Below, in pieces: positions 3,827 to 59,414 of a stretch of DNA of 64,000 bases; position 1 is the stretch's first letter; each line of letters starts with the position of its first letter. Origin of the DNA: an uncultured Gammaproteobacteria bacterium (GTDB lineage Bacteria; Patescibacteriota; Patescibacteriia; XYB2-FULL-38-15); the NCBI GenBank assembly GCA_965231095.1, contig OZ246416.1, positions 805,595-869,594 of the forward strand, in the 5' to 3' direction. Made by a program: the position numbers and the translations under genes. The notes beneath the pieces were generated by a model. The model had not been told where the DNA came from, searched no databases, and was given only the letters and a program-made list of their open reading frames with translations.

Positions 3827-3851
3827 TTGAGGGGGGGGGGTGATTGCGGGG

Positions 3852-3880
3852 TTGACGAGAAAATAAATATCTTGTAAATT
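3852..3880 (+). promoter_or_regulatory. candidate sigma70-type promoter (TTGACG-17-TAAATT) driving the GC-rich small-ORF cassette
   Basis: -35 TTGACG at 3852-3857, a 17-nt spacer, and -10 TAAATT at 3875-3880. About 100 nt upstream of the SD-led small ORF. Confidence 0.35.
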
Positions 3881-3983
3881 GTAAACGTTGGGTCCAACGC
3901 GGCCCACGTTCCGAGGACGGGGCATCGGCCCCAAGCACAGGCGGAGGCTTGCGCTTGCCGCCGCGCCGAGAAGGAGGTCCACG

Positions 3984-22495: not shown

Positions 22496-22604
22496 AATGG
22501 AAGACAGAAGTTGGAAGTTTGAAGTTAAAAAAAAGTTCGCCGGCGAGGCGGGCTTTTTTGACTTTTTAAAATAAAAAAAGTAAAGTGAGGCGAAGGAGGA
22601 TAAG

Positions 22605-23018
22605 ATGGGAAAGAAAAAGCGGGGAAAACTGCGAGGTGATATTGTCGCTCTGCGCGCGGCCGTGGCCGGAATGAAGGGCGAAGAAGTGTGCGAGGGCGGC
22701 GGGGAGGAGTCGTATAGCGCGCTCCGGCGGGATCAGCCGGTTTGCGACTTCGGTGAGGGACGAAAGTGTGCGTGCTGCGGATGTTCATTGGCTCGGAGCA
22801 ATCCGGACGAGTTCTGCAGGCCCTGCGATCGCGCTATTGCGGAGTGGAAAAATTTTCCTTGGAACCGCGCCGAGATTGAAAAGCGAATGGCGAAACATTG
22901 CCTTTGTTTTGTCCAATCGGGGACAAAAAAGAAGAGGTCTTGTCGCGGCGTCTCAAGGATCGCTGTGAGCGGCAGTTTCCTGCGGGCGATTGGCGTAGAG
23001 AAATCGGGAGAAAAGTGA
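22605..23018 (+). CDS. GC-rich Cys-rich hypothetical protein (137 aa)
   Basis: SD GAAGGAGG sits 6 nt upstream of the ATG. Contains C-x-C...CACCGC...CRPC...HCLC (10+ Cys). GC and codon usage are foreign to the host. Follows the gdhA terminator. Confidence 0.5.
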   Translation: MGKKKRGKLRGDIVALRAAVAGMKGEEVCEGGGEESYSALRRDQPVCDFGEGRKCACCGCSLARSNPDEFCRPCDRAIAEWKNFPWNRAEIEKRMAKHCLCFVQSGTKKKRSCRGVSRIAVSGSFLRAIGVEKSGEK

Positions 23019-23195
23019 AGCGAGGAAAGAAGTAAGGCAAGGGGTTTGGTTTTGTGCCAGCCCTTTTTTATTTTGATTATTTAAAATTGTTCTTGACATT
23101 TTTAATATAAACTGTTTAAATTAGGTGTTCCGCGAATGTGCGGAAGAGGGTGTAGAATTTAGGCCCCGAGCGGGCTTCTGGGAAGGAGAACGAGG

Positions 23196-24188
23196 ATGAG
23201 GGCGCCTTCATGTGCTGGTCTTGAGGCCGGCGAGGAAGTCATTCTCTGCCGGGTGGAAGAACGGTGGGAAGTGGCTGTAGCGAGGATTCGGTTCGGCCGC
23301 GAAGCGCTCTGTCTCGCGTTGCAGAATTTCATTTTGTTTCTCGGGCACCTTTTGGAAATGTCCGGCGAGACGAGCAAGATCGACCAGATCCTGGCCGCGG
23401 TCGGGAGAGCGAAACTTCCGGAGAAGAAGGAGTTCACCGATCTCGAGGGTCAGAGCCTGCGGGTCATGGAGACCAAGTGGTCTGCTGTGGCTCAAGAAAT
23501 TCGAGCGGGTACAATGGCTCTCTTCCCGGCCTCTGAGGAATTTCTGATGTACGTCGGGAGATACCTCATTGGTCGGGCAGAATCGAAATCGTCCGAGAAG
23601 TCCTGGGCGGAGAAGCAGCAGCTGATGATGCAGGGATTCTACCGCTCTCTCATAGCGGATAACGTCCACATCGCGGCAGAGCTCCGGATCAAGGTTCCTT
23701 CTGGGACTGACGACCAGATTCGGGAGTGGTTCGCCATGGGGAAGAATCTCATCTACGAGCCCTCGGAATACGAAATTCCGGGCGCGCGTCTCATGGCCGC
23801 TCTGCCGCATCGAATGCTGGTGGACGACCCGGGTCAAATCGTCTGGGAGCCGGTTAGAGAAGGACGCTGGCTTCTGGTTGACGCCCAGGAACACTGCCCG
23901 GGTGCCGGCGATCGGTCTTACCGGGGTTACGAAATGGCTCTTGAGAGAGGCCGGCGGATCATCACTCTGCCGCAGTACGCCATCCTCTGGTACATCGGCG
24001 GACTCGGCGGGGAGATCCTGGATCCCGAGACGGACACACTGCTCGCGACTCGCTACGGCGCGGACAGCGTTCTCCACGCTTTCGGCCGGTGCGCCATGCG
24101 AGACCTCCGGTTCTCGGTCGGCGAGTGGCGACACACCACGAAGAAACATCCCAAGATGGGAGTGCGGCTAGTGGAGGTTGTCGCATGA
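23196..24188 (+). CDS. GC-rich hypothetical protein (330 aa)
   Basis: Candidate promoter (TTGACA-17-TTAAAT plus an extended -10 TGTAGAAT) and SD AAGGAGA upstream. Protein-like composition; the antisense ORF (23208-24149) is Pro/Arg/Ser junk. Strong terminator at 24201-24243. Confidence 0.5.
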   Translation: MRAPSCAGLEAGEEVILCRVEERWEVAVARIRFGREALCLALQNFILFLGHLLEMSGETSKIDQILAAVGRAKLPEKKEFTDLEGQSLRVMETKWSAVAQEIRAGTMALFPASEEFLMYVGRYLIGRAESKSSEKSWAEKQQLMMQGFYRSLIADNVHIAAELRIKVPSGTDDQIREWFAMGKNLIYEPSEYEIPGARLMAALPHRMLVDDPGQIVWEPVREGRWLLVDAQEHCPGAGDRSYRGYEMALERGRRIITLPQYAILWYIGGLGGEILDPETDTLLATRYGADSVLHAFGRCAMRDLRFSVGEWRHTTKKHPKMGVRLVEVVA

Positions 24189-24200
24189 ATGGAGGCAGTG

Positions 24201-24272: not shown

Positions 24273-27200
24273 ATGGAATACAATTTTAAGAAAATAGAAA
24301 AGAAGTGGCAGGCGAAATGGGAGAAGGAAAAGATTTATGAAGTTAAAGAACCCGCCGCCGCTCGAGCTAAGGCGGGCGAAGAAAAGTTTTATTGTTTAAT
24401 TGAATTTCCTTATCCCTCGGGAGAAGGGTTGCACGTCGGCCATCCGCGAAGTTATACGGCGCTTGATATTGTCGCCAGAAAAAATCGGATGCAGGGAAAA
24501 AATGTTTTGTACCCAATCGGCTGGGATGCCTTTGGTTTGCCCACGGAAAATTATGCTATCAAAACCGGGATTCAGCCGGCAGTGGCCACGGAAAAAAATA
24601 TTAAAAATTTTACGCGCCAATTAAAGTCGCTCGGATTTTCCTTTGACTGGTCGCGGGAAATTAACACGACTGATCCAGAATATTATAAATGGACACAATG
24701 GATGTTTTTGCAATTTTTTAAACACGGTTTGGCATACAAAGATAAAATCGCTATCAATTGGTGCACAAAATGTAAAATTGGTTTAGCAAATGAAGAAGTG
24801 GTGAACGGCGTTTGCGAACGCTGCGGCGGGACGGTCGTAAAAAAGATGAAAGAGCAGTGGATGATAAAAATTACCAAATACGCCGAACGGCTGCTTTCCG
24901 GTTTGGAAAAAGTTGATTATTCTCCGCGCATTAAAGAAGGGCAGATTAATTGGATTGGAAAATCAGAAGGCGCGGAGGTAGATTTTGGAATTAAGAATTC
25001 AGAATTAAGAATTAAAGTATTCACGACCAGGCCGGACACGCTTTTTGGCGCGACGTATATGGTATTGGCGCCGGAACATAAGTTGATTGAAAATTTAAAA
25101 TTGAAAATTAAAAATTGGGGCGAAGTTGAAAAATATATTAATGATGCGAAGAAAAAATCTGATTTGGAGCGGACGGAATTACAAAAAGAAAAAACCGGTG
25201 TGGAGTTAAAAGGGATCAAGGCGGTGAATCCGGCGAACAATGAAGAAATTCCGATTTGGGCAGCGGATTATGTTTTAACCGGCTACGGCACCGGGGCGAT
25301 TATGGCTGTCCCGGCGCATGATGAACGCGATTTTGAATTTGCCAAAAAATTTGGTTTGCCGATTCGCGAAGTGGTTAAATTTAGCGGAGTCCCGGCTTCA
25401 GCCGGAGAACCCCTGTCTAAAGACAGGACTCCAGAACACGCTTTCGCGGGGGAGGGCACGACAATTAATTCAGATTTTCTTGACGGATTGCCGACGGCTG
25501 AGGCAAAAGAAAAAATTATCAAGTGGTTGGAAGAAAAACATATTGGTAAAAAGGCCGTGAATTATAAATTGCGCGATTGGGTTTTTTCGCGTCAAAGATA
25601 TTGGGGCGAGCCGATTCCCTTGGTGTATTGTGAAAATTGCGCGAAGAAAAAACAGAAAATATTATTGATTCATGGCTTGGGTGGCAATCCACAAGAAAAT
25701 TGGTTTCCGTGGTTTAAAAAACAGATGGAGGAGCGTGGTTTTGAGGTAATTATCCCAGACTTGCCGAAGCCAGAAAAGCTTTATTTAAAAGATTGGTTGA
25801 GCGAATTAGGAAAACTCGGTATAACTTCTGATGATGATTTGTTTGTTATGGGTCATAGTTTGGGTGGCCCCGCAGCGTGTCAGTTTATTTTGAAGAATAA
25901 TTTATCTGTTAAAAAATTAATTTTAGTCGCGCCGGTTGGCAAAAGTTCTGATTGGCAGCAGTTAAAGAAATATGATTTTTCCGAGGATGAAATTGCCACG
26001 ATCGCTCGGTTTGGTGGGGTTCCAATTGACTTTTCTAAATTGAAAAGTTTAGTAATGTCTTCTGTTTTATATTTTTCTAAAGACGATCCATATATTCCTT
26101 TGAATATTCAAGATGACTATAAGGAGTTAAATGGCGCGGTAAGGATTTTTGAAGATAAGAAGCATTTTGGTTCGCTGTGGGGAATTACCGAGTTACCGGA
26201 AATTTTGGAAGAATTTTTTGCGGCTGATGAGTTAAATCTCGGATGGCAGCCGGTGCCAGATAAGGATTTGCCGGTGGAATTGCCAAAAGTTAAAAAATAC
26301 GAGCCGACTGATACCGGAGAATCGCCGCTGGCCGCGATAGAAAAATGGGTGAAGACAAAATGTCCGAAGTGCGGCGGCGAGGCGCGACGGGAAACAGACA
26401 CAATGCCAAACTGGGCCGGGTCGTCGTGGTATTTTATGCGCTACGCTGATCCGAAAAATAAAAAAGAATTTGCCGGAGAGAAAAGTTTGAAATATTTTAT
26501 GCCCGTGGATTGGTACAATGGCGGAATGGAACACACGACACTGCACCTATTGTATTCCAGATTTTGGTATAAATTTTTGTATGATATTGGCGCGATTCCC
26601 AAAGAATGCGGCGATGAACCGTACAAAAAAAGAACTTCGCACGGTTTGATTCTGGGCGAGGGCGGAGAAAAAATGAGTAAGTCGCGCGGCAATGTGGTAA
26701 ATCCCGATGATGTTGTGGCGCGTTTTGGCGCCGACACGCTTCGGGTTTACGAAATGTTTATGGGTCCGTTTGAGCAGGCAATTCCATGGGATGAAAAAGG
26801 CGTGGTTGGAGTTTTTCGTTTTTTAGAGAGGATATGGCGGTTGCAAGAAAAATGCAAAATTAAAAATGCAAAATTAAAAATTACAATTAAAAATGAAAAA
26901 TTGGAGAGGTTGATACATCAGACAATAAAGAAAGTAGGAGAAGATATTGAGCAAATGAAATTTAACACAGCGGTTTCGGCCTTGATGATTTTAACAAATG
27001 AAATGGCGGCGCAAGAAGAATTACCAGTTGCCAATTACCAATTACTAATTACTCTCTTAGCCCCATTTGCCCCGCACATTGCCGAAGAACTTTGGGAAAA
27101 ACTCGGCAACAAAAAAAGTATCCATTTGGAAAAGTGGCCGGAATATGACCCGGCACTTATTGTTGAAGAAGAAATTGATTTGGTTATTCAGGTGAATGGA

Positions 27201-27839
27201 AAAGTACGTGGCACAGTAAGAGAGAGGGCTGACATAAACGAAGAAGAGGCAAAAGAAATTGCTATAAAAAAGAAGTTGGTTGAGGAAAAAAACATCAAAA
27301 AAACTTTTTTTCCAGACGATATTAGAAAAACTGGAAGTAGATTATTAAATATTGTTACCGTTGGGAGTGCCGTCTTATATAATGGTAATTTGCATCCGAT
27401 AGTTGATATTGGAGTCGACCCGGATGCTGTTGATTTCCGTTTTACCCAAGTGAAAATCTCGGCCGGATCAGTTGAGCCGCTGAATGTCGAACAGATCATT
27501 GCTATCAAAAATGGCACCGCCACCAACAGCGACGTAAAGAATATTACTCTTTATAACGACACGACTGGTGAAACTCTCGGTATGGTGGCGGCTTTGGATA
27601 GTAACGGGAGGGCTGTGTTTTCGAATATAGATTTAAAAATCCCGAAAGGTGGATATGTCGAACTCTCTATCAAAGCCGATATGAATGGCGGTTCTGGCAA
27701 AACAATCGCTTTTAATCTGCACGACGGAAATTCCTCTACCATTATGATCAAAGGTGCGACTTTTAAGTCAGTTATTATCCCGATCAGAAGTAATTTTTGT
27801 AACGCCGACGGCACTTGCCAAATCCAAAGTATTCAGTAG
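24273..27839 (+). CDS. leuS: leucyl-tRNA synthetase with an inserted serine-hydrolase (alpha/beta-hydrolase) domain and a C-terminal extension
   Basis: HIGH ([12 protein letters not shown]), CP1 editing domain ([19 protein letters not shown]) and KMSKS. An in-frame ~205-aa insert between YCENC and CPKCGG carries GHSLGG / DDPYIP / KHFGS. A further ~160 aa follows the conserved LLNIV C-terminus. Confidence 0.9.
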
Positions 27840-27867
27840 TGTGGGTCTTTGTGACATAGGGGAGGGT

Positions 27868-29373
27868 ATGTCTAAATCAAAAATATTTTTCTATTCTTGT
27901 TTATTTTTTATTGTTGGAGTTGGTCTCGCGTCTTATCTATCATTGCCGCTTTGGGCCGCGTTCGCGATTTTAGTCGCGGGATGCGGTTTTTTATTTTGGG
28001 GGTGGCCTGCCTCATCGGCGGATAGGCCCGGAAATAAAAAATTTATTGTTCTCGGCCTCGCCGGATTTTTTTTATTTTTAGGAATGCTGCGTTTTGCGGC
28101 GAGCATACCGGCGGGGGACCAAGATCAAATAAGTTTTTATAATGGGCAAGAAAAAAATTTTGTCGGAATTGTGGCGGCCGAACCGGATACGCGAGACAAT
28201 GGCGTGAAATTAAAAATTAAAAGTGAAAGGGTGGAGATTGATGGAGGTTGGCTGGCGGTTTGGGGAAATATTTTAGTCAACGCGAGATTATATCCGGCCT
28301 ATCGTTATGGTGATGAATTAGAAATAAAATGTAAATTACAAAAACCGGAACCGATTGAAGATTTCGCATATGATAAATATCTGGCCAAGGAAAATATTTA
28401 TTCATTATGTTATTGGCCGGAAATAAAATTTTTAAAAAGTGGGGAAGGAAATAAAATTGTGGCGGGCGTTTTGTGGGCCAAAGAAAAATTAGTGGCGACG
28501 GTGAACCGCATTTTACCCGAACCGCAGGCAGCGTTTTTAGGAGGATTGCTTTATGGCGCGAAGCGCGGCATTCCGGCAGACCTTACAGAAAAATTTAACA
28601 TTACCGGCACGACGCACATTGTCGCGATTTCCGGATACAACATCACAATTCTTGCGGTGTTGCTTTTACAAATTACGAAAAGTATCGGCATCGGCCGGAA
28701 AAAATCTTTTTGGATCGCGCTTTCCGGAATTTTATTTTTCGTAATTTTGACGGGAGCGGCCTCTTCGGTTGTTCGCGCGGCCGTGATGGGTTTGCTTGTA
28801 CTTGTCGCAACTCAAGTCGGCCGGACCTCAAAAATCACAAACGTGCTTTTGCTTGCCGCCGCGGTAATGCTTGTTTTTAATCCAAAAATTTTGGCGTTTG
28901 ATGTAGGTTTTCAATTATCTTTTGCTGCGACAATTGGCCTCGTTTTCCTTTCACCGATTTTTGAAAAGTATTTTGAAAAGTTGCCGTCAATTTTCGGAGT
29001 TAAGGAATCGCTCGCTACCACAATGTCCGCGATTGTTTTAACCCTGCCGTTGATTTTGTATAATTTCGGCCGCGTTTCGTTTATCGCGCCGCTCGCCAAT
29101 ATTTTAATTTTGCCGGTGATTCCGCTCGCCATGGCGCTTGGATCGCTCGCCGTGCTTGGAGGAATAATTTATCTTGGCCTTGGCCGGATTATTGGTTGGT
29201 TGGCATGGCTAGTTTTAAGTTATATAATTAAGGCAGTGGAAATTTTGGCGGCGATTCCTTGGGCTTCGGGCGAGGCAGGAAAAATACATTGGATTTTTTT
29301 GATAATATTTTATTTATTAATTGGTTGGTTCATTTGGTGGAAGATTCAAAAAAATAAAAAACTTAATGTTTAA
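27868..29373 (+). CDS. comEC: ComEC/Rec2 competence membrane channel (membrane domain only)
   Basis: Polytopic, with the ComEC competence-domain pattern. The ATG at 27868 follows SD AGGGGA. The track ORF start at 27754 overlaps the leuS 3' end. Confidence 0.75.
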   Translation: MSKSKIFFYSCLFFIVGVGLASYLSLPLWAAFAILVAGCGFLFWGWPASSADRPGNKKFIVLGLAGFFLFLGMLRFAASIPAGDQDQISFYNGQEKNFVGIVAAEPDTRDNGVKLKIKSERVEIDGGWLAVWGNILVNARLYPAYRYGDELEIKCKLQKPEPIEDFAYDKYLAKENIYSLCYWPEIKFLKSGEGNKIVAGVLWAKEKLVATVNRILPEPQAAFLGGLLYGAKRGIPADLTEKFNITGTTHIVAISGYNITILAVLLLQITKSIGIGRKKSFWIALSGILFFVILTGAASSVVRAAVMGLLVLVATQVGRTSKITNVLLLAAAVMLVFNPKILAFDVGFQLSFAATIGLVFLSPIFEKYFEKLPSIFGVKESLATTMSAIVLTLPLILYNFGRVSFIAPLANILILPVIPLAMALGSLAVLGGIIYLGLGRIIGWLAWLVLSYIIKAVEILAAIPWASGEAGKIHWIFLIIFYLLIGWFIWWKIQKNKKLNV

Positions 29374-30235
29374 TTTTAAAAATAAAAAATTGGTAACGCG
29401 GCTTGTCGGGATATTTTCCGCGATTTTAATTTTGGCCGGCGTTGCCTTTTTCCAGTCGGTTGAAGACAACGGAAAACTTGTTGTAAATTTTTTTGATGTT
29501 GGGCAGGGCGATGCGATTTTGATAAAAACTCCGGAGCAGCAAAAAATTTTGATTGACGGCGGGCCGTCGAATGTTGTGGTGCAAAAACTCGGGGAAGTTC
29601 TGCCGTTCTACGACCGAAAAATTGATCTTATAATTTTGACACATCCGCACGCCGATCATTTGGACGGATTGATTGAAGTTTTAAAAAGACATGAAGTGAA
29701 AAAAATTTTATCAACCGGCGTAACGCATACGACGCCGGATTATTTGGCGTGGCTAGAAGAAATAAAAAATCAAAATGTGCCAATGGAAATTGCGATGGCC
29801 GGACAAATTATTGATTTTGGCGGCGGAGTGAAAACGGAGATTCTGTATCCGACGGAGGATTTAGCGGGAAAGTCAGTGGAAAATTTAAATGATACTTCGA
29901 TTGTCGCGAAATTAATTTTCGGCCAAACTTCATTTCTGTTCACTGGCGACGCGGAGACAGAGGTGGAGGAAAAATTGATTAGCGGGGGAGCGAATTTAAA
30001 AGCAGATGTTTTGAAAGTCGGCCATCATGGAAGCAAAAACGCCACGAGTGATAATTTTTTAGAAAAAGTTCAGCCAAGCTTTGCCGTGGTTTCAGTTGGC
30101 GCTGACAATCAGTTTGGCCATCCGAATGCGATGACCATAAAACGTTTAGAAAATATCGGCGCGGAAATTTTTAGAACAGATGAAGAGGGGAATGTGAAAA
30201 TGGTGAGCGATGGAATGAAAATTGAGATAAAATAA
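29366..30235 (+). CDS. MBL-fold hydrolase, ComEC C-terminal beta-lactamase-like domain encoded as a separate ORF
   Basis: HPHADH motif. One TM segment, then a metallo-beta-lactamase domain. ATG at 29366 overlaps the comEC stop by 8 nt (ATGTTTAA). Confidence 0.7.
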   Translation: MFNFKNKKLVTRLVGIFSAILILAGVAFFQSVEDNGKLVVNFFDVGQGDAILIKTPEQQKILIDGGPSNVVVQKLGEVLPFYDRKIDLIILTHPHADHLDGLIEVLKRHEVKKILSTGVTHTTPDYLAWLEEIKNQNVPMEIAMAGQIIDFGGGVKTEILYPTEDLAGKSVENLNDTSIVAKLIFGQTSFLFTGDAETEVEEKLISGGANLKADVLKVGHHGSKNATSDNFLEKVQPSFAVVSVGADNQFGHPNAMTIKRLENIGAEIFRTDEEGNVKMVSDGMKIEIK

Positions 30236-56721: not shown

Positions 56722-58014
56722 ATGCAATCCATTTTATTGAAAGATATCAGTCAATATTTGAACCAGGAAGTCGCGATCCGCGGCTGGATTTATAATTTTC
56801 GTTCCTCGGGCAGTATCTTTTTTTTGCAAGTCCGAGATGGCTCCGGCTTTGTCCAGGCGATTGTTTCTAAAAAAGAAGTGGCGCCGGAGATTTGGGAAGC
56901 GTGTGAAAAAATAACGATAGAAACTTCAGTGGAAATTTCTGGCACGGTTAGTAAACATCCGAAAAAGGAAGAATACGAATTGCAAGTAAAAAATTTAAAA
57001 ATTGTCCAGGTTGCCGAAGAATATCCAATCGGGAAAAAAGAACATGGTCCGGATTTTCTTTTGGACATCCGCCACCTCTGGCTTCGTTCGGGAAAACAAT
57101 GGGCAACGCTGCGCGTGCGAAACACGATCATCAACGCGACCTATGAATATTTTAATCAAAATGGATTTATAAAAATTGATACGCCGATTTTGACGCCGAC
57201 CGCCTGCGAGGGAACAACAACTCTTTTTGAAGTTCCGTATTTTGATTTAGGGAAAGCATATCTCGCGCAATCTGGTCAGCTTTATTTGGAAGCGGCAGTT
57301 ATGAGTTTTGGCCGGTGCTTTGATTTTGGCCCAACTTTCCGGGCGGAAAAATCAAAAACCCGCCGGCATCTCACAGAATTTTGGATGATGGATGCCGAAG
57401 CGGCGTTTACCAACCATGAAGGTAATATGAAAATTCAGGAAGAATTGATTTGCCACATCGTTACGAGAGTTTTGGAAAAAAATAAAAAAGAATTGGAAAT
57501 TTTAGAAAGAGATATTTCAAAATTGGAAAAAGTTAGGGCGCCGTTTGGGCGGATGATCTACGCCGCGGCGATTAAAAAAGTTCAAGCATTGGGTTCCGAC
57601 ATTAAAGACGGAGAAGATTTGGGGGCGGACGATGAAACTTTATTGACGCAAGATTCTGACGTGCCGATTTTTGTGGAAAAATGGCCGCGGCAGATAAAAG
57701 CATTTTATATGAAACGCGATCCGGAAAATCCGGAAGTAGTTTTGGGTTCTGACTTAATCGCGCCGGAAGGCCACGGAGAAATTATCGGTGGCTCGGAGCG
57801 CGAAGATAATTATGATTTGCTTCTCGCGCGGATGAAAGAAGAAAAAATGCCCCTTGAAGATTTTCAGTGGTATTTGGATTTGCGAAAATACGGTTCGGTG
57901 CCACACTCCGGTTTTGGCTATGGGCTGGAGAGGATTGTCGGCTGGATGTGCGGGATTCATCATATTCGTGAAACGATTCCTTTTCCAAGAATGATTAATA
58001 GATTAAGACCATAA
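56722..58014 (+). CDS. asnS: asparaginyl-tRNA synthetase
   Basis: Class IIb with OB anticodon-binding domain. Motif 2 GPTFRAEKSKTRRHLTEFWMMDAE is AsnRS-specific. Motif 3 GFGYGLERIV. Confidence 0.85.
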   Translation: MQSILLKDISQYLNQEVAIRGWIYNFRSSGSIFFLQVRDGSGFVQAIVSKKEVAPEIWEACEKITIETSVEISGTVSKHPKKEEYELQVKNLKIVQVAEEYPIGKKEHGPDFLLDIRHLWLRSGKQWATLRVRNTIINATYEYFNQNGFIKIDTPILTPTACEGTTTLFEVPYFDLGKAYLAQSGQLYLEAAVMSFGRCFDFGPTFRAEKSKTRRHLTEFWMMDAEAAFTNHEGNMKIQEELICHIVTRVLEKNKKELEILERDISKLEKVRAPFGRMIYAAAIKKVQALGSDIKDGEDLGADDETLLTQDSDVPIFVEKWPRQIKAFYMKRDPENPEVVLGSDLIAPEGHGEIIGGSEREDNYDLLLARMKEEKMPLEDFQWYLDLRKYGSVPHSGFGYGLERIVGWMCGIHHIRETIPFPRMINRLRP

Positions 58015-58022
58015 AATTATTT

Positions 58023-59414
58023 ATGACGCGTACACTTATAAAAGACACAGTTAGTAAGGTAGGGGAGGAGGTGCTCCTCAAGGGCTGGGTCCATGTCCGC
58101 CGCGACATGGGAAAAATTATTTTTATTGATTTGCGCGACGCGACCGGTTTAATCCAGGTTGTTTTTGTTTCCAAAGATAAAGAATTTATGGCGGCGGCCG
58201 ATAAACTTCGCTCGGAATTTGTCGTGGCCATTACCGGAAAAGTAAACAAGCGGCCGGAAAAAATGGTTAATCCAAATCTCGCCACTGGCACAGTTGAACT
58301 TGAAGCGAAAAATCTGGAAATATTGAATGAATCAAAAACCTTGCCTTTTGAGATTGATAAAGATACGCTGCCAATTAGCGAAGAATTGAGAATGAAATAC
58401 AGGTATCTTGATTTGCGGAGCGAGCGGATGAGGAAAAATATTTTGTTGCGCAGTCAAATGTTAAATAAAATCAAGAATTTTTTGCACGAGCGAAATTTTG
58501 TGGAAATTGAAACGCCATATATTACCAAAGGTACTCCGGAAGGCGCGCGGGAATATATGGTTCCCTCGCGAATGCATGCCGGAAAATTTTACGTTCTGCC
58601 GCAATCTCCCCAGCAGTTTAAACAGTTGTTAATGGTTGCCGGGTTTGAAAAATATTTTCAGATCGCCAGATGTTTTCGCGACGAAGATCAGCGCGGCGAC
58701 CGCCAGCCGGAATTTACCCAGCTTGATATGGAAATGTCTTTTGTTGATCAAGAGGATGTAATGAAACTTACCGAAGAATTAATGATTCATTTGGCAAAAA
58801 CCGTGGCGCCGGAGAAGAAAATTAAAAAAACTCCCTTTCCGGTTTTGACCTATGACGAGGCGATAAAAAAATATAAAACCGATAAGCCGGATTTGCGTGA
58901 GGATAAAAAAGATCCAAATGAATTAGCTTTTTGTTGGGTAGTTGATTTTCCTCTTTTTGAATGGTCAGAGACTGATAAAAAACTTGTTTCATCGCACCAT
59001 CCTTTTACCATGCCACACAAAGAAGATTTGGAAGACTTGGAAGAACATCCGCTTGATGCCCGCGCTTACGCTTATGACCTGGTGTTAAACGGCTACGAAG
59101 TGGGCGGCGGCAGTATCAGAATTCATGACAGAAATTTACAATCAAAAATTTTTCGATTGCTCGGCGTTGGTAAAGACGACGCAGAATTACGCTTTGGCCA
59201 TATGTTTGAGGCCTTTACTTATGGTGCCCCACCGCACGGGGGTATTGCACCCGGTCTTGATAGATTGGCCATGCTTTTTGCCGGCGAACCGAATATTCGC
59301 GAAGTAATGGCTTTTCCCAAAACTTCTGACGCTCGCGATTTGATGATGGGCGCTCCGTCGGAACTGCCGGAAGCGCAACTTAAGGAAGCGCATATTAAGG
59401 TGGTGGAAAAATAA
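58023..59414 (+). CDS. aspS: aspartyl-tRNA synthetase (compact form lacking the bacterial GAD insertion)
   Basis: FRDEDQRGDRQPEFTQLDMEMSF (motif 2) and GGIAPGLDRL (motif 3). 463 aa. Confidence 0.9.
   Translation: MTRTLIKDTVSKVGEEVLLKGWVHVRRDMGKIIFIDLRDATGLIQVVFVSKDKEFMAAADKLRSEFVVAITGKVNKRPEKMVNPNLATGTVELEAKNLEILNESKTLPFEIDKDTLPISEELRMKYRYLDLRSERMRKNILLRSQMLNKIKNFLHERNFVEIETPYITKGTPEGAREYMVPSRMHAGKFYVLPQSPQQFKQLLMVAGFEKYFQIARCFRDEDQRGDRQPEFTQLDMEMSFVDQEDVMKLTEELMIHLAKTVAPEKKIKKTPFPVLTYDEAIKKYKTDKPDLREDKKDPNELAFCWVVDFPLFEWSETDKKLVSSHHPFTMPHKEDLEDLEEHPLDARAYAYDLVLNGYEVGGGSIRIHDRNLQSKIFRLLGVGKDDAELRFGHMFEAFTYGAPPHGGIAPGLDRLAMLFAGEPNIREVMAFPKTSDARDLMMGAPSELPEAQLKEAHIKVVEK

What the first reader, a model, noticed from the sequence alone, without database searches (positions are those of the whole stretch)
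25650..26266. Serine-hydrolase (YdeN/RBBP9-type alpha/beta-hydrolase) domain inserted in-frame into LeuRS
About 205 aa sit between the zinc-knuckle cysteines YCENC and CPKCGG of LeuRS. In E. coli this region is a ~50-aa linker. The insert has the hallmarks of the PF06821 serine-hydrolase family: LLIHGLGG, the nucleophile elbow GHSLGG, acid DDPYIP and His KKHFGS. The flanking LeuRS sequence is continuous and the CP1 editing domain is present. An esterase fold inside an aminoacyl-tRNA synthetase suggests an extra deacylase or proofreading activity, or a moonlighting function. It is not an intein: it lacks the Cys/Ser-His-Asn splice signatures.
Basis: partly seen in the sequence, partly recalled or inferred. 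Interest (0 to 1): 0.7.

Follow-up and report, generated by a model that had tools for sequence, protein, structure and literature searches.

The report
Esterase domain nested inside leucyl-tRNA synthetase
A complete, apparently active small serine esterase is built into a zinc-binding loop of the enzyme that loads leucine onto tRNA, and relatives of this esterase are repeatedly found inside or right next to that same gene in ultra-small bacteria, which points to an undescribed helper activity of the synthetase.

Summary
The 1188-aa ORF at 24273-27839 (+) is a complete bacterial LeuRS. A 199-aa YdeN/RBBP9-type serine hydrolase (PF06821) sits at aa 458-656 (nt 25644-26240). It lies between the two Cys pairs of the ZN-2 zinc knuckle and displaces no LeuRS residue.

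The insert folds confidently on its own (pLDDT 92.8). Its best structural matches are YdeN and RBBP9. The Ser529-Asp605-His631 triad is kept in nearly all LeuRS-embedded homologues. An independent assembly is 100% identical, so this is not a misassembly.

The feature is not unique. Dozens of Patescibacteria LeuRS carry this domain at three different sites, often together with NUDIX, ITPase or PD-(D/E)XK domains. Insert types are swapped independently of the LeuRS core.

Stand-alone members of the same hydrolase clade lie directly beside leuS in four diverse genomes, which indicates a specific LeuRS link. The CP1 editing site is intact, so the domain is an addition and not a replacement.

The likeliest function is hydrolysis of an aminoacyl ester or amide made or bound by LeuRS. 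This is inferred, not shown. A weakening fact is that the same family is also nested in UvrB of DPANN archaea. I found no publication on this architecture.

The parts
24273..27839 (+). leuS ORF, 1188 aa including the stop: complete bacterial-type LeuRS with a nested hydrolase and a C-terminal extension.
   Evidence: NCBIfam TIGR00396 leuS_bact scores 989.9 bits against a cut-off of 548.4, in two stretches. Pfam finds tRNA-synt_1, tRNA-synt_1_2 and Anticodon_1. The full-length AF2 model has pLDDT 82 and matches LeuRS structures with TMt 0.78-0.85.
24432..24443 (+). HIGH-type signature HVGH (aa 54-57).
   Evidence: Read directly from the sequence. H54, G56 and H57 are invariant in the 58-sequence alignment.
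24762..24824 (+). ZN-1 zinc knuckle, with Cys164, Cys167, Cys181 and Cys184.
   Evidence: Read directly from the sequence. C164 and C181 are invariant; C167 and C184 are at least 90% conserved.
24948..25532 (+). CP1 editing domain (aa 226-420). The T-rich motif TTRPDT (251-256) and the HDERD motif (349-353) are intact.
   Evidence: PF13603 at E = 5.6e-65 covering profile 2-185/185. T251, T252, R253, T256, H349, D350, R352 and D353 are invariant.
25629..25640 (+). First Cys pair of the ZN-2 knuckle (C453, C456), which corresponds to Thermus C439/C442.
   Evidence: Alignment to 1H3N. Both Cys are invariant. The ZN-2 Cys pairs are essential for aminoacylation in another bacterial-type LeuRS (PMC4005665).
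25644..26240 (+). Nested YdeN/RBBP9-type serine hydrolase domain (aa 458-656), including the short linkers AKKKQK at the N-terminal end and AADELNL at the C-terminal end.
   Evidence: PF06821 at E = 2.3e-14. Boundaries come from the 1H3N alignment. AF2 of the insert alone gives pLDDT 92.8 and pTM 0.90. Foldseek top hits are 1UXO, 7OEX and 2QS9.
25671..25676 (+). His467-Gly468 (HG motif, the usual oxyanion-hole element of alpha/beta hydrolases).
   Evidence: H and G are each conserved in 70/74 embedded copies and in 138/142 and 128/142 free copies. The oxyanion-hole role is inferred from general knowledge of the fold.
25857..25859 (+). Codon of the predicted nucleophile Ser529, in the GHSLGG elbow.
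   Evidence: Ser is present in 74/74 embedded and 142/142 free homologues. It is invariant in alignment A1.
26085..26087 (+). Codon of the predicted acid Asp605.
   Evidence: Asp is present in 68/74 embedded and 141/142 free homologues. It is invariant in A1.
26163..26165 (+). Codon of the predicted base His631.
   Evidence: His is present in 74/74 embedded and 140/142 free homologues. It is invariant in A1.
26241..26372 (+). Native remainder of ZN-2 (G657 to C700), with the second Cys pair C697/C700, which corresponds to Thermus C484/C487.
   Evidence: Alignment to 1H3N. G657, C697 and C700 are invariant.
26670..26684 (+). KMSKS loop (aa 800-804). The leucine-specific domain that precedes it in Thermus (Tt 580-636) is absent.
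   Evidence: Sequence. The alignment jumps from query 795/Tt 579 to query 800/Tt 637.
26901..27221 (+). Anticodon-binding domain (aa 877-983).
   Evidence: PF08264 at E = 1.9e-23.
27363..27836 (+). C-terminal 158-aa extension beyond the normal LeuRS end. It is beta-rich and of unknown nature.
   Evidence: No Pfam or PHROG hit. The AF2 model shows beta strands with pLDDT mostly 32-75. It is shared only with P0025, at 77% identity.

Best explanation
The segment encodes a self-folding, catalytically competent serine hydrolase of the YdeN/RBBP9 family (PF06821). It is nested between the two Cys pairs of the ZN-2 zinc knuckle of a LeuRS that is otherwise complete and keeps its editing domain.

The hydrolase belongs to a clade that is tied specifically to leuS in Patescibacteria. 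Members of that clade are nested in LeuRS at three different surface sites or are encoded as a separate gene directly beside leuS.

Proposed mechanism:
1. Ser529 is activated by His631 and Asp605.
2. The HG motif and the elbow backbone form the oxyanion hole.
3. Ser529 attacks the carbonyl of an amino acid that carries a free alpha-amine and is bound in ester or amide linkage.
4. The likeliest substrates are the aminoacyl ester at the 3' end of a (mis)charged tRNALeu, or an aminoacyl-nucleoside/nucleotide by-product made at the synthetase. Hydrolysis releases the amino acid.

On this view the domain is an accessory clearance activity that works beside the intact CP1 editing site and does not replace it.

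Shown: domain identity, exact insertion site, fold, triad conservation, intact LeuRS, recurrent genetic linkage to leuS.
Inferred: that the domain is active, the substrate class, and action in cis.
For: Identity and fold:
- PF06821 at 54 bits against a gathering score of 22.
- Profile hits to YdeN and RBBP9.
- AF2 pLDDT 92.8.
- Foldseek 1UXO TM 0.80/0.86 and 7OEX/2QS9 TM about 0.76/0.82.

Constraint on the insert:
- The triad is kept in 74/74, 68/74 and 74/74 embedded copies.
- Within one insert type, the insert is as conserved as the LeuRS core. Query versus P0026 gives 85% for the insert and 82% for the core; P0025 versus P0033 gives 96% and 88%.

Host intact:
- TIGR00396 scores above its cut-off.
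- HIGH and KMSKS are present.
- CP1 and both zinc knuckles are invariant.
- The full-length model matches LeuRS structures.

Linkage to leuS:
- The hydrolase is nested at site A (ZN-2), at site B (a loop inside CP1) and at site C (the start of CP1) in different LeuRS proteins. Some proteins carry two copies.
- Most embedded copies fall in one neighbour-joining clade in which sites A, B and C are mixed.
- Four stand-alone members of that clade lie directly beside leuS on the same strand. The genomes have GC 27-51% and LeuRS 41-59% identical to the query. The loci are L082 (downstream, 7-nt gap), L091 (upstream, 40 nt; 48% identical to this insert), L093 (downstream, 1 nt) and L096 (upstream, 78 nt).
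- That is 4 of 8 informative contexts. About 0.2% would be expected for a random gene.

Chemistry of the family:
- RBBP9 forms acyl-enzyme adducts with single Leu/Ile, Met, Phe, Tyr and Trp residues. It needs a free alpha-amine, and its authors state it may cleave amide, ester or thioester bonds (PMC8866121).
- RBBP9 is reported to activate valacyclovir, an aminoacyl ester of a nucleoside analogue (Shenoy 2020, cited in PMC7730578).
- YdeN has no hydrophobic lid, which suggests soluble ester substrates. The YdeN homologue ML-005 is a short-chain esterase (PMC6119806).
Against: - No activity or geometry was tested. The tools return no coordinates or PAE, so I cannot say whether Ser529 can reach the tRNA 3' end.
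- The linker at 650-653 has low confidence, which fits a loosely tethered domain.
- CP1 editing residues are intact in LeuRS with and without the insert, so no obvious editing gap needs filling.
- Embedded domains are as acidic as free ones (median net charge -5 against -6, p = 0.19; the query is -8). There is no sign of an RNA-binding surface.
- The cap region shows no residues conserved across insert types (consensus). The RBBP9 residue that binds the alpha-amine (Glu108) could not be aligned reliably.
- Insert identity is uncoupled from LeuRS core identity (Spearman 0.13 over 820 pairs). This argues against a co-evolved interface.
- The same family is nested in UvrB of DPANN archaea (about 11 clusters). 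It is also fused to NUDIX, Ham1, inositol monophosphatase and methyltransferase domains, so it is a promiscuous partner.
- A PD-(D/E)XK nuclease domain is also nested in some of these LeuRS, and it has no obvious link to aminoacyl chemistry.
- The four leuS-adjacent genes could descend from nested copies by local rearrangement. They may therefore not be four independent events.
Confidence: 0.45

Rival explanations
1. Autonomous hosted enzyme. The hydrolase is an ordinary housekeeping esterase or aminopeptidase that has nothing to do with tRNA charging. It sits in a permissive surface loop of an essential, constitutively expressed protein, and in these tiny genomes LeuRS merely provides expression and a scaffold.
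For: - The family is also nested in UvrB of DPANN archaea and fused to several unrelated enzymes.
- LeuRS in this lineage also hosts NUDIX, Ham1 and PD-(D/E)XK domains, and small low-complexity inserts occur at the same ZN-2 loop.
- Insert and host identities are uncoupled.
- There is no shared cap signature and no basic surface.
- CP1 is intact.
- Aminoacyl-tRNA synthetases are reported as generally preferred hosts for domain insertion (PMC13114784).
Against: - Four diverse genomes keep a stand-alone homologue directly beside leuS, in both gene orders.
- The domain entered LeuRS at three sites, all on the CP1/ZN-2 side of the enzyme. The other insert I saw in the C-terminal half, the roughly 165-aa insert of P0031, was not identified.
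- Ten other large proteins in this window have ordinary architectures.
- Among the long proteins in the best 150 representative hits, all but one are LeuRS.
Confidence: 0.25
2. Immunity module. The hydrolase, and the NUDIX and ITPase domains in relatives, destroys natural LeuRS inhibitors that mimic leucyl-adenylate or aminoacyl-nucleotides. It does this at the target itself, by cleaving the aminoacyl-nucleotide bond.
For: - Different insert types are swapped among LeuRS with 80-91% identical cores, as expected under an arms race.
- Several classes of small-molecule hydrolases are nested in the same target enzyme.
- RBBP9-type enzymes cleave aminoacyl esters and amides that have a free amine.
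- LeuRS is a known target of aminoacyl-adenylate mimics such as TM84 from agrocin 84 (PDB 3ZGZ title; discussion in PMC13454842).
- NCBIfam has a model for an IleRS with an added N-acetyltransferase domain (NF040702). This shows that other synthetases carry added enzyme domains. The name is only a lead, because I did not examine that family.
Against: - There is no direct evidence.
- No inhibitor is known for these organisms.
- The PD-(D/E)XK nuclease and UvrB cases do not fit.
- PADLOC was not run.
- The swapping can be explained by recombination between conserved leuS flanks.
Confidence: 0.12
3. Mobile cassette. The hydrolase gene is cargo of, or is itself, a selfish element that targets the leuS locus. 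It lands inside leuS or beside it and persists because in-frame insertion in tolerant loops is harmless.
For: - The gene occurs in many positions in and around one gene (three nested sites, upstream and downstream).
- Host and insert phylogenies are incongruent, with about 12 embedded/free changes on the neighbour-joining tree.
- A faint Y1 transposase hit lies next to the hydrolase in L082.
Against: - No target-site duplications or terminal repeats flank the insert.
- No recombinase or homing endonuclease is present in this locus.
- The catalytic triad is strictly kept, so the enzyme activity itself is under selection.
- The left linker AKKKQK is shared across insert types. This points to replacement by homologous recombination and not to fresh insertions.
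Confidence: 0.1
4. Artefact or dead relic. The insert is an assembly chimera, or a decaying non-functional remnant.
For: The GC content of the insert is slightly lower (0.36-0.40) than that of the flanks (0.40-0.47).
Against: - A Logan assembly of run SRR8863431 is 100% identical over 15,246 bases that span both junctions.
- More than 40 homologous LeuRS have the same junctions.
- The reading frame is continuous.
- The fold is confident, and the triad is conserved.
Confidence: 0.02

Closest known systems
YdeN (B. subtilis, PDB 1UXO) and RBBP9 (human, PDB 2QS9/7OEX): Pfam PF06821 Ser_hydrolase, COG3545
   Same: - Same family by profile score and same fold by structure comparison.
- Same Ser-Asp-His triad and HG motif.
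- Same size, about 190 aa, with no large lid.
- RBBP9 cleaves single hydrophobic amino acids that carry a free amine from amides or esters.
   Different: - Those proteins are free-standing. This copy is nested inside another enzyme.
- Sequence identity is only 23-25%.
- The cap region is longer here.
- The substrate-binding residues of RBBP9 could not be matched.
CP1 editing domain of LeuRS (PF13603)
   Same: It is also a hydrolytic domain inserted into the Rossmann fold of the same enzyme. Its job is to cleave aminoacyl esters of tRNALeu. That is the activity proposed here.
   Different: - The fold and the catalytic chemistry are unrelated. CP1 has no Ser-His-Asp triad.
- CP1 is universal in LeuRS, whereas this insert is lineage-specific and interchangeable.
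- CP1 is intact here, so the new domain is additional.
Free-standing or appended trans-editing factors of other synthetases (YbaK/ProXp, AlaX, D-aminoacyl-tRNA deacylase). This comparison is from my own knowledge and was not tested here.
   Same: They are small hydrolases that clear aminoacyl-tRNA. They occur either fused to a synthetase or as separate genes. The same dual state is seen here, nested and leuS-adjacent.
   Different: The folds are different. None of these factors is an alpha/beta hydrolase. No Pfam model of those families hits this protein.
UvrB with a nested Ser_hydrolase domain in DPANN archaea (P0233 and about 10 related clusters)
   Same: The same hydrolase family is nested in-frame in a large housekeeping enzyme of an ultra-small organism.
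   Different: - The host enzyme and the domain of life are different.
- That insert belongs to another branch of the hydrolase tree.
- There, the insert co-varies with its host: 62-68% identity over the full length.
IleRS with an added N-acetyltransferase domain (NCBIfam NF040702). I know this only from the model's name.
   Same: It is a bacterial class Ia synthetase that carries an extra small-molecule-modifying enzyme domain.
   Different: The added domain and the synthetase are different. I did not examine that family.

Membership tests
Pfam PF06821 Ser_hydrolase (YdeN/RBBP9 family) | Scores above the family's curated gathering threshold over most of the profile. | tested here: met
   54.1 bits against 22, profile positions 1-167 of 172, E = 2.3e-14.
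Pfam PF06821 Ser_hydrolase (YdeN/RBBP9 family) | Compact alpha/beta-hydrolase fold of about 190 aa whose closest structures are YdeN and RBBP9. | tested here: met
   The AF2 model has pLDDT 92.8. Foldseek ranks 1UXO first (TM 0.80/0.86), followed by 7OEX, 2QS9 and 9FCR.
Pfam PF06821 Ser_hydrolase (YdeN/RBBP9 family) | Catalytic triad: Ser in a GxSxG elbow, plus Asp and His. | tested here: met
   Ser529 (in GHSLGG), Asp605 and His631 are present. They are invariant in A1 and conserved in embedded copies.
Pfam PF06821 Ser_hydrolase (YdeN/RBBP9 family) | Measured serine hydrolase activity. | not testable with these tools
   This needs purified protein and an S529A control.
RBBP9-type aminoacyl hydrolase (substrate class) | A residue that anchors the free alpha-amine (Glu108 in RBBP9) and a hydrophobic cage (Tyr99, Leu103, Phe140, Leu141). 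| tested here: inconclusive
   The cap region aligns poorly and contains indels. It has no consensus across insert types.
Bacterial leucine-tRNA ligase (NCBIfam TIGR00396) | Scores above the curated cut-off. | tested here: met
   989.9 bits against 548.4, in two stretches split by the insert.
Bacterial leucine-tRNA ligase (NCBIfam TIGR00396) | Class I signatures HIGH and KMSKS. | tested here: met
   HVGH at aa 54-57 and KMSKS at aa 800-804. Both are invariant in A2.
Bacterial leucine-tRNA ligase (NCBIfam TIGR00396) | CP1 editing domain with the T-rich motif and the conserved Asp. | tested here: met
   PF13603 at E = 5.6e-65. TTRPDT and HDERD are invariant. The equivalence to E. coli T252/D345 is from my own knowledge.
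Bacterial leucine-tRNA ligase (NCBIfam TIGR00396) | ZN-2 domain with two Cys pairs (specific to bacterial and mitochondrial LeuRS). | tested here: met
   C453/C456 and C697/C700 align to Thermus C439/C442 and C484/C487 and are invariant. The description of the domain is taken from PMC4005665.
Bacterial leucine-tRNA ligase (NCBIfam TIGR00396) | Leucine-specific domain before KMSKS. It is typical of the family but not universal. | tested here: not met
   The alignment skips Thermus residues 580-636. Related Patescibacteria LeuRS of about 800 aa lack it too.
Intein | Hint/intein splicing domain, with a nucleophile at the first residue, His-Asn at the end, and Cys/Ser/Thr as the next host residue. 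| tested here: not met
   No intein profile hits the protein. The insert starts with AKKKQK and ends with ELNL, followed by Gly657. For comparison, genuine inteins were detected by the same library in some UvrB proteins.
Known aminoacyl-tRNA editing or deacylase domain families other than CP1 (YbaK, AlaX/tRNA_SAD, DTD) | A profile match of the insert to one of those families. | tested here: not met
   Only alpha/beta-hydrolase families hit the insert. The NCBIfam hits are weak alpha/beta-hydrolase matches far below their cut-offs.

The most novel reading that the evidence does not exclude
Patescibacteria LeuRS carries a lineage-specific, exchangeable set of accessory hydrolases: an alpha/beta serine hydrolase, a NUDIX domain and an ITPase. 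In this reading the alpha/beta-hydrolase is a new, third structural class of enzyme acting on aminoacyl-tRNA or aminoacyl-nucleotides. It would act either as a new kind of editing or clearance domain, or as built-in immunity against inhibitors that mimic aminoacyl-adenylate. It exists both nested in LeuRS and as a leuS-operon partner.
Probability: 0.3. Interest if true: 0.85.

Novelty: new variant of a known kind. Interest (0 to 1): 0.62.

Why it matters
Synthetases are known to gain hydrolytic domains that protect the accuracy of translation, but all known ones belong to a few dedicated folds. Here an alpha/beta-hydrolase is genetically wedded to LeuRS. It is nested at three sites, encoded beside leuS in other genomes, and travels with NUDIX and ITPase domains. 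If it acts on LeuRS products or ligands, it would be a new route to quality control or inhibitor resistance.

The organisms concerned have minimal genomes and make up a large part of bacterial diversity. The finding also gives a concrete, cheap experiment, because the protein is a single polypeptide with a clear catalytic serine to mutate.

If the domain turns out to be autonomous, the case still documents an unusual habit of ultra-small bacteria and archaea: packing small enzymes inside essential proteins (LeuRS in one group, UvrB in the other). It also shows CP1 acting as a host domain, contrary to a recent survey (PMC13114784).

Tried and rejected
1. The word-index homologue search with the insert alone returned only stand-alone proteins of about 190 aa. 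It missed every LeuRS-embedded copy, including the self protein. The full-length query and the exhaustive representative search were needed.
2. The genome-contig scan suggested giant LeuRS genes of 4-5 kb. tblastn showed these spans are neighbouring paralogous class I synthetase genes and not giant LeuRS. I dropped that line.
3. I looked for target-site duplications or terminal repeats at the insert borders. Only short chance repeats were found.
4. I tested whether embedded copies are more basic, as a tRNA-binding surface would be. There is no difference from free copies.
5. I looked for residues specific to the LeuRS-linked clade. Only a few positions on the helix after the nucleophile differ: Ala535 is gained and the Arg at position 537 is lost. 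This is too little to infer a substrate.
6. I asked whether inteins share the hydrolase site in UvrB. They do not; the intein sits in the P-loop region.
7. NCBIfam typing of the NUDIX inserts gave only weak sub-threshold similarity to RNA pyrophosphohydrolase models. No subfamily was assigned.
8. The geometry of the hydrolase relative to the tRNA path could not be assessed, because the structure tool returns no coordinates or PAE.
9. Eight literature searches found no paper that describes a hydrolase-bearing LeuRS.
10. The high-GC island upstream of leuS had no Pfam, PHROG or plasmid match.
Full report
**Observation**

The region lies in one long ORF, 24273-27839 on the + strand, 1188 aa.
- YCENC at aa 452-456
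- LLIHGLGG at 464-471
- GHSLGG at 527-532
- DDPYIP at 604-609
- KKHFGS at 629-634
- CPKCGG at 697-702

The gathering score is 22, and nearly the whole profile is covered. Weaker hits go to general alpha/beta-hydrolase families.

**Exact anatomy**

A phmmer alignment to Thermus thermophilus LeuRS (1H3N) pairs query 2-457 with Tt 3-443 and query 657-795 with Tt 443-579. The foreign segment is therefore aa 458-656 (nt 25644-26240, 199 aa). It is inserted without loss of any LeuRS residue.

The insertion point is immediately after the first Cys pair of the ZN-2 knuckle (C453/C456 = Tt C439/C442) and before the conserved Gly-Trp. The second pair (C697/C700 = Tt C484/C487) follows 41 native residues later.

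ZN-2 is a domain specific to bacterial and mitochondrial LeuRS. Its Cys pairs are required for aminoacylation in another LeuRS (PMC4005665).

**The host is a complete LeuRS**
- It scores 989.9 bits on TIGR00396 against a cut-off of 548.4.
- It has HVGH and KMSKS.
- It has a full CP1 editing domain, PF13603 at E = 5.6e-65.
- In a 58-sequence alignment of relatives with and without the insert, the CP1 motifs TTRPDT and HDERD and all ZN-1/ZN-2 cysteines are invariant or nearly so.
- The full-length AF2 model (pLDDT 82) matches bacterial LeuRS structures with TM 0.78-0.85 relative to the target.
- The leucine-specific domain is absent.
- A 158-aa beta-rich tail of unknown nature is appended.

**Is the insert a working enzyme?**

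Modelled alone with 23 stand-alone homologues, it folds with pLDDT 92.8 and pTM 0.90 as an alternating beta/alpha domain. Its best structural matches are B. subtilis YdeN (1UXO, TM 0.80/0.86) and human RBBP9 (7OEX, 2QS9, TM about 0.76/0.82). These score well ahead of other alpha/beta hydrolases. A profile search of PDB sequences agrees, with YdeN at E = 2.5e-39 and RBBP9 at E = 5e-27.

In 74 LeuRS-embedded and 142 free homologues, the nucleophile Ser is present in 74/74 and 142/142. The His is present in 74/74 and 140/142, and the Asp in 68/74 and 141/142. Within one insert type, the insert is as conserved as the LeuRS core: 85% against 82% for the query and P0026, and 96% against 88% for P0025 and P0033. 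These are the marks of a domain under purifying selection for catalysis.

**Not an artefact**

The identical protein is on an 886-kb NCBI contig. It is also in a separate Logan assembly of run SRR8863431. That contig is 100% identical to the window over 15,246 bases covering both junctions. More than 40 related LeuRS share the same junctions: C-x-x-C, then A-K-K-K-Q-K, the hydrolase, and then G-W. No intein profile matches, and no flanking repeats are present.

**Distribution and behaviour**

The closest LeuRS relatives are all from Patescibacteria. Source names include Falkowbacteria, Magasanikbacteria and Kerfeldbacteria, and the closest GTDB locus is a Falkowbacteria MAG at 79% identity.

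Many of these LeuRS carry PF06821. The domain occurs at three places:
- Site A: ZN-2, as in this window.
- Site B: a loop inside CP1, around query residues 368-390.
- Site C: the start of CP1, around query residues 243-247.

Some proteins have two copies. Sites B and C also host NUDIX, Ham1/ITPase or PD-(D/E)XK domains.

Among 41 site-A proteins, insert identity is almost unrelated to core identity (Spearman 0.13 over 820 pairs). In a clade whose cores are 80-91% identical, there are at least four insert types that are only 27-34% identical to each other. The shared left linker and the highly conserved flanks suggest replacement by homologous recombination.

On a neighbour-joining tree, most embedded copies form one large clade in which sites A, B and C are mixed. 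A second group of site-A copies lies among free proteins. About 12 embedded/free changes are needed to explain the tree. This tree is rough at about 30% identity.

**Link to leuS**

I looked up the genomic context of stand-alone homologues. Four that fall inside the LeuRS-associated clade are encoded directly beside leuS on the same strand:
- P0006, downstream, 7-nt gap (L082)
- P0146, upstream, 40-nt gap (L091); it is the closest free relative of this insert at 48% identity
- P0148, downstream, 1-nt gap (L093)
- P0163, upstream, 78-nt gap (L096)

These are verified by tblastn. The contigs differ widely, with GC 27-51% and LeuRS 41-59% identical to the query. One contig reads UGA at conserved Gly positions.

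Four other homologues are not next to leuS, and three contigs were too short to tell. Four of eight is far above the roughly 0.2% expected for a random gene. The four may share ancestry with nested copies, so they may not be independent.

In 80 LeuRS loci from species-representative genomes, only five carry the hydrolase. All five are Patescibacteria, and in all five the domain is nested.

**Counter-evidence on specificity**
- The family is also nested in UvrB of DPANN archaea, about 11 clusters, between the UvrB interaction domain and the C-terminal helicase domain.
- It is fused to NUDIX, Ham1, inositol monophosphatase and methyltransferase domains.
- In Firmicutes contigs it is followed directly by a NUDIX gene. 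So the pairing of hydrolase with NUDIX recurs as neighbours, as a fusion, and as co-residents of LeuRS.
- Ten other large proteins in this window are canonical.

**What the family does**

YdeN has a full triad and no hydrophobic lid, which suggests soluble esters or thioesters. A distant homologue, ML-005, is a short-chain esterase (PMC6119806).

RBBP9 traps single Leu/Ile, Met, Phe, Tyr or Trp residues on its catalytic position and requires a free alpha-amine. It acts as an aminopeptidase, and its authors note that amide, ester or thioester bonds could be the target (PMC8866121). It is also reported to activate valacyclovir, a valyl ester of a nucleoside analogue (cited in PMC7730578).

An aminoacyl-tRNA is an amino acid with a free amine esterified to adenosine, so the chemistry fits.

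**Mechanism and rivals**

My best reading is that this is an active accessory hydrolase functionally tied to LeuRS. It would clear an aminoacyl ester or amide made or bound by the enzyme, beside the intact CP1 site (confidence 0.45). As separate estimates:
- about 0.95 for identity
- about 0.75 for a specific leuS link
- about 0.4 for the substrate class

Points against this reading:
- CP1 is intact.
- Embedded copies are acidic like free ones.
- The cap region is not conserved across types.
- There is no co-evolution with the host.
- The UvrB case exists.
- I could not obtain geometry, because no coordinates are returned.

Rivals:
- an autonomous enzyme merely hosted in a tolerant loop (0.25)
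- an immunity module against aminoacyl-adenylate mimics (0.12)
- a leuS-targeted mobile cassette (0.10)
- an artefact or dead relic (0.02)

**Comparison and novelty**

The domain is a member of PF06821 by every testable criterion, and the host is a member of bacterial LeuRS. It may work like an editing domain, but it belongs to none of the known editing families.

Databases already label some of these proteins as 'leucyl-tRNA synthetase/predicted alpha/beta hydrolase family esterase'. Eight literature searches found no paper describing it.

A recent survey states that CP1 never acts as a host domain (PMC13114784). These LeuRS contradict that.

I rate it a new variant of a known kind: a synthetase with an added hydrolytic module of a new fold, at a new site, and with unusual modular exchange.

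Noticed in passing
window 22600-24200: There is a high-GC island (0.52-0.64, against about 0.40 around it) directly upstream of leuS. It holds two ORFs: 22605-23018 (137 aa, Cys-rich) and 23196-24188 (330 aa). Neither has a Pfam, PHROG or plasmid match. The island is also present in the independent Logan assembly, so it is probably foreign DNA and not a chimera.
   Followed up: partly
window 27363-27836: LeuRS carries a 158-aa beta-rich C-terminal extension beyond its normal end. It has no family match and low model confidence. It is shared only with P0025, at 77% identity.
   Followed up: partly
window 26655-26684: The leucine-specific domain that precedes KMSKS in Thermus and E. coli LeuRS is absent.
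   Followed up: no
P0025, P0040, P0061, P0065, P0144 (related LeuRS): Related LeuRS carry a NUDIX domain inside a CP1 loop. They also carry Ham1/ITPase or PD-(D/E)XK (PF13366) domains at the start of CP1, often together with the hydrolase. CP1 therefore acts as a host domain, contrary to the 'never a host' statement in PMC13114784.
   Followed up: partly
P0233, P0292-P0294, P0296, P0297, P0300-P0302, P0311, P0315: UvrB proteins named as archaeal (Pacearchaeota, Nanoarchaeota) carry the same hydrolase family nested between the UvrB interaction domain and the C-terminal helicase domain. Some UvrB also carry an intein, but at a different site, the P-loop.
   Followed up: partly
L082:3282-6567: This is a leuS-hydrolase gene pair in a 27% GC contig. 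In-frame TGA codons fall at conserved Gly positions (GHSL*G, NM*HF), which suggests a lineage where UGA codes for Gly. The gene caller had read them as Trp. A faint Y1 transposase hit lies just downstream.
   Followed up: partly
L088-L090:6001-7080; P0198; P0226: In Firmicutes contigs a stand-alone Ser_hydrolase gene is followed directly by a NUDIX gene. NUDIX-hydrolase and Ham1-hydrolase fusion proteins also exist. The hydrolase and these nucleotide pyrophosphatases seem to travel together outside LeuRS as well.
   Followed up: no
P0150, P0154: These are short ORFs that look like pieces of LeuRS keeping mainly the hydrolase. P0154 joins the first roughly 24 LeuRS residues to the start of CP1 and the hydrolase. 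P0150 has a hydrolase, a CP1 with degenerate editing motifs, and a NUDIX domain. They may be fragments, pseudogenes or free-standing derivatives.
   Followed up: no
window 27754-30235: ComEC appears as two overlapping ORFs: the Competence/DUF4131 part at 27754-29373 and the metallo-beta-lactamase part at 29321-30235.
   Followed up: no
window 56722-59414: Two class IIb aminoacyl-tRNA synthetase genes (OB fold plus tRNA-synt_2) lie in tandem.
   Followed up: no
L061:3001-6137: The closest named relative is a Candidatus Falkowbacteria MAG, 79% identical and carrying the same insert type. Its leuS is split between two reading frames near nt 3837-3936, which is either a frameshift or an assembly error.
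   Followed up: no
The word-index protein search with the 205-aa insert alone returned none of the LeuRS-embedded copies, not even the identical source protein. A 'no fused homologues' result from that tool would have been misleading.
   Followed up: yes
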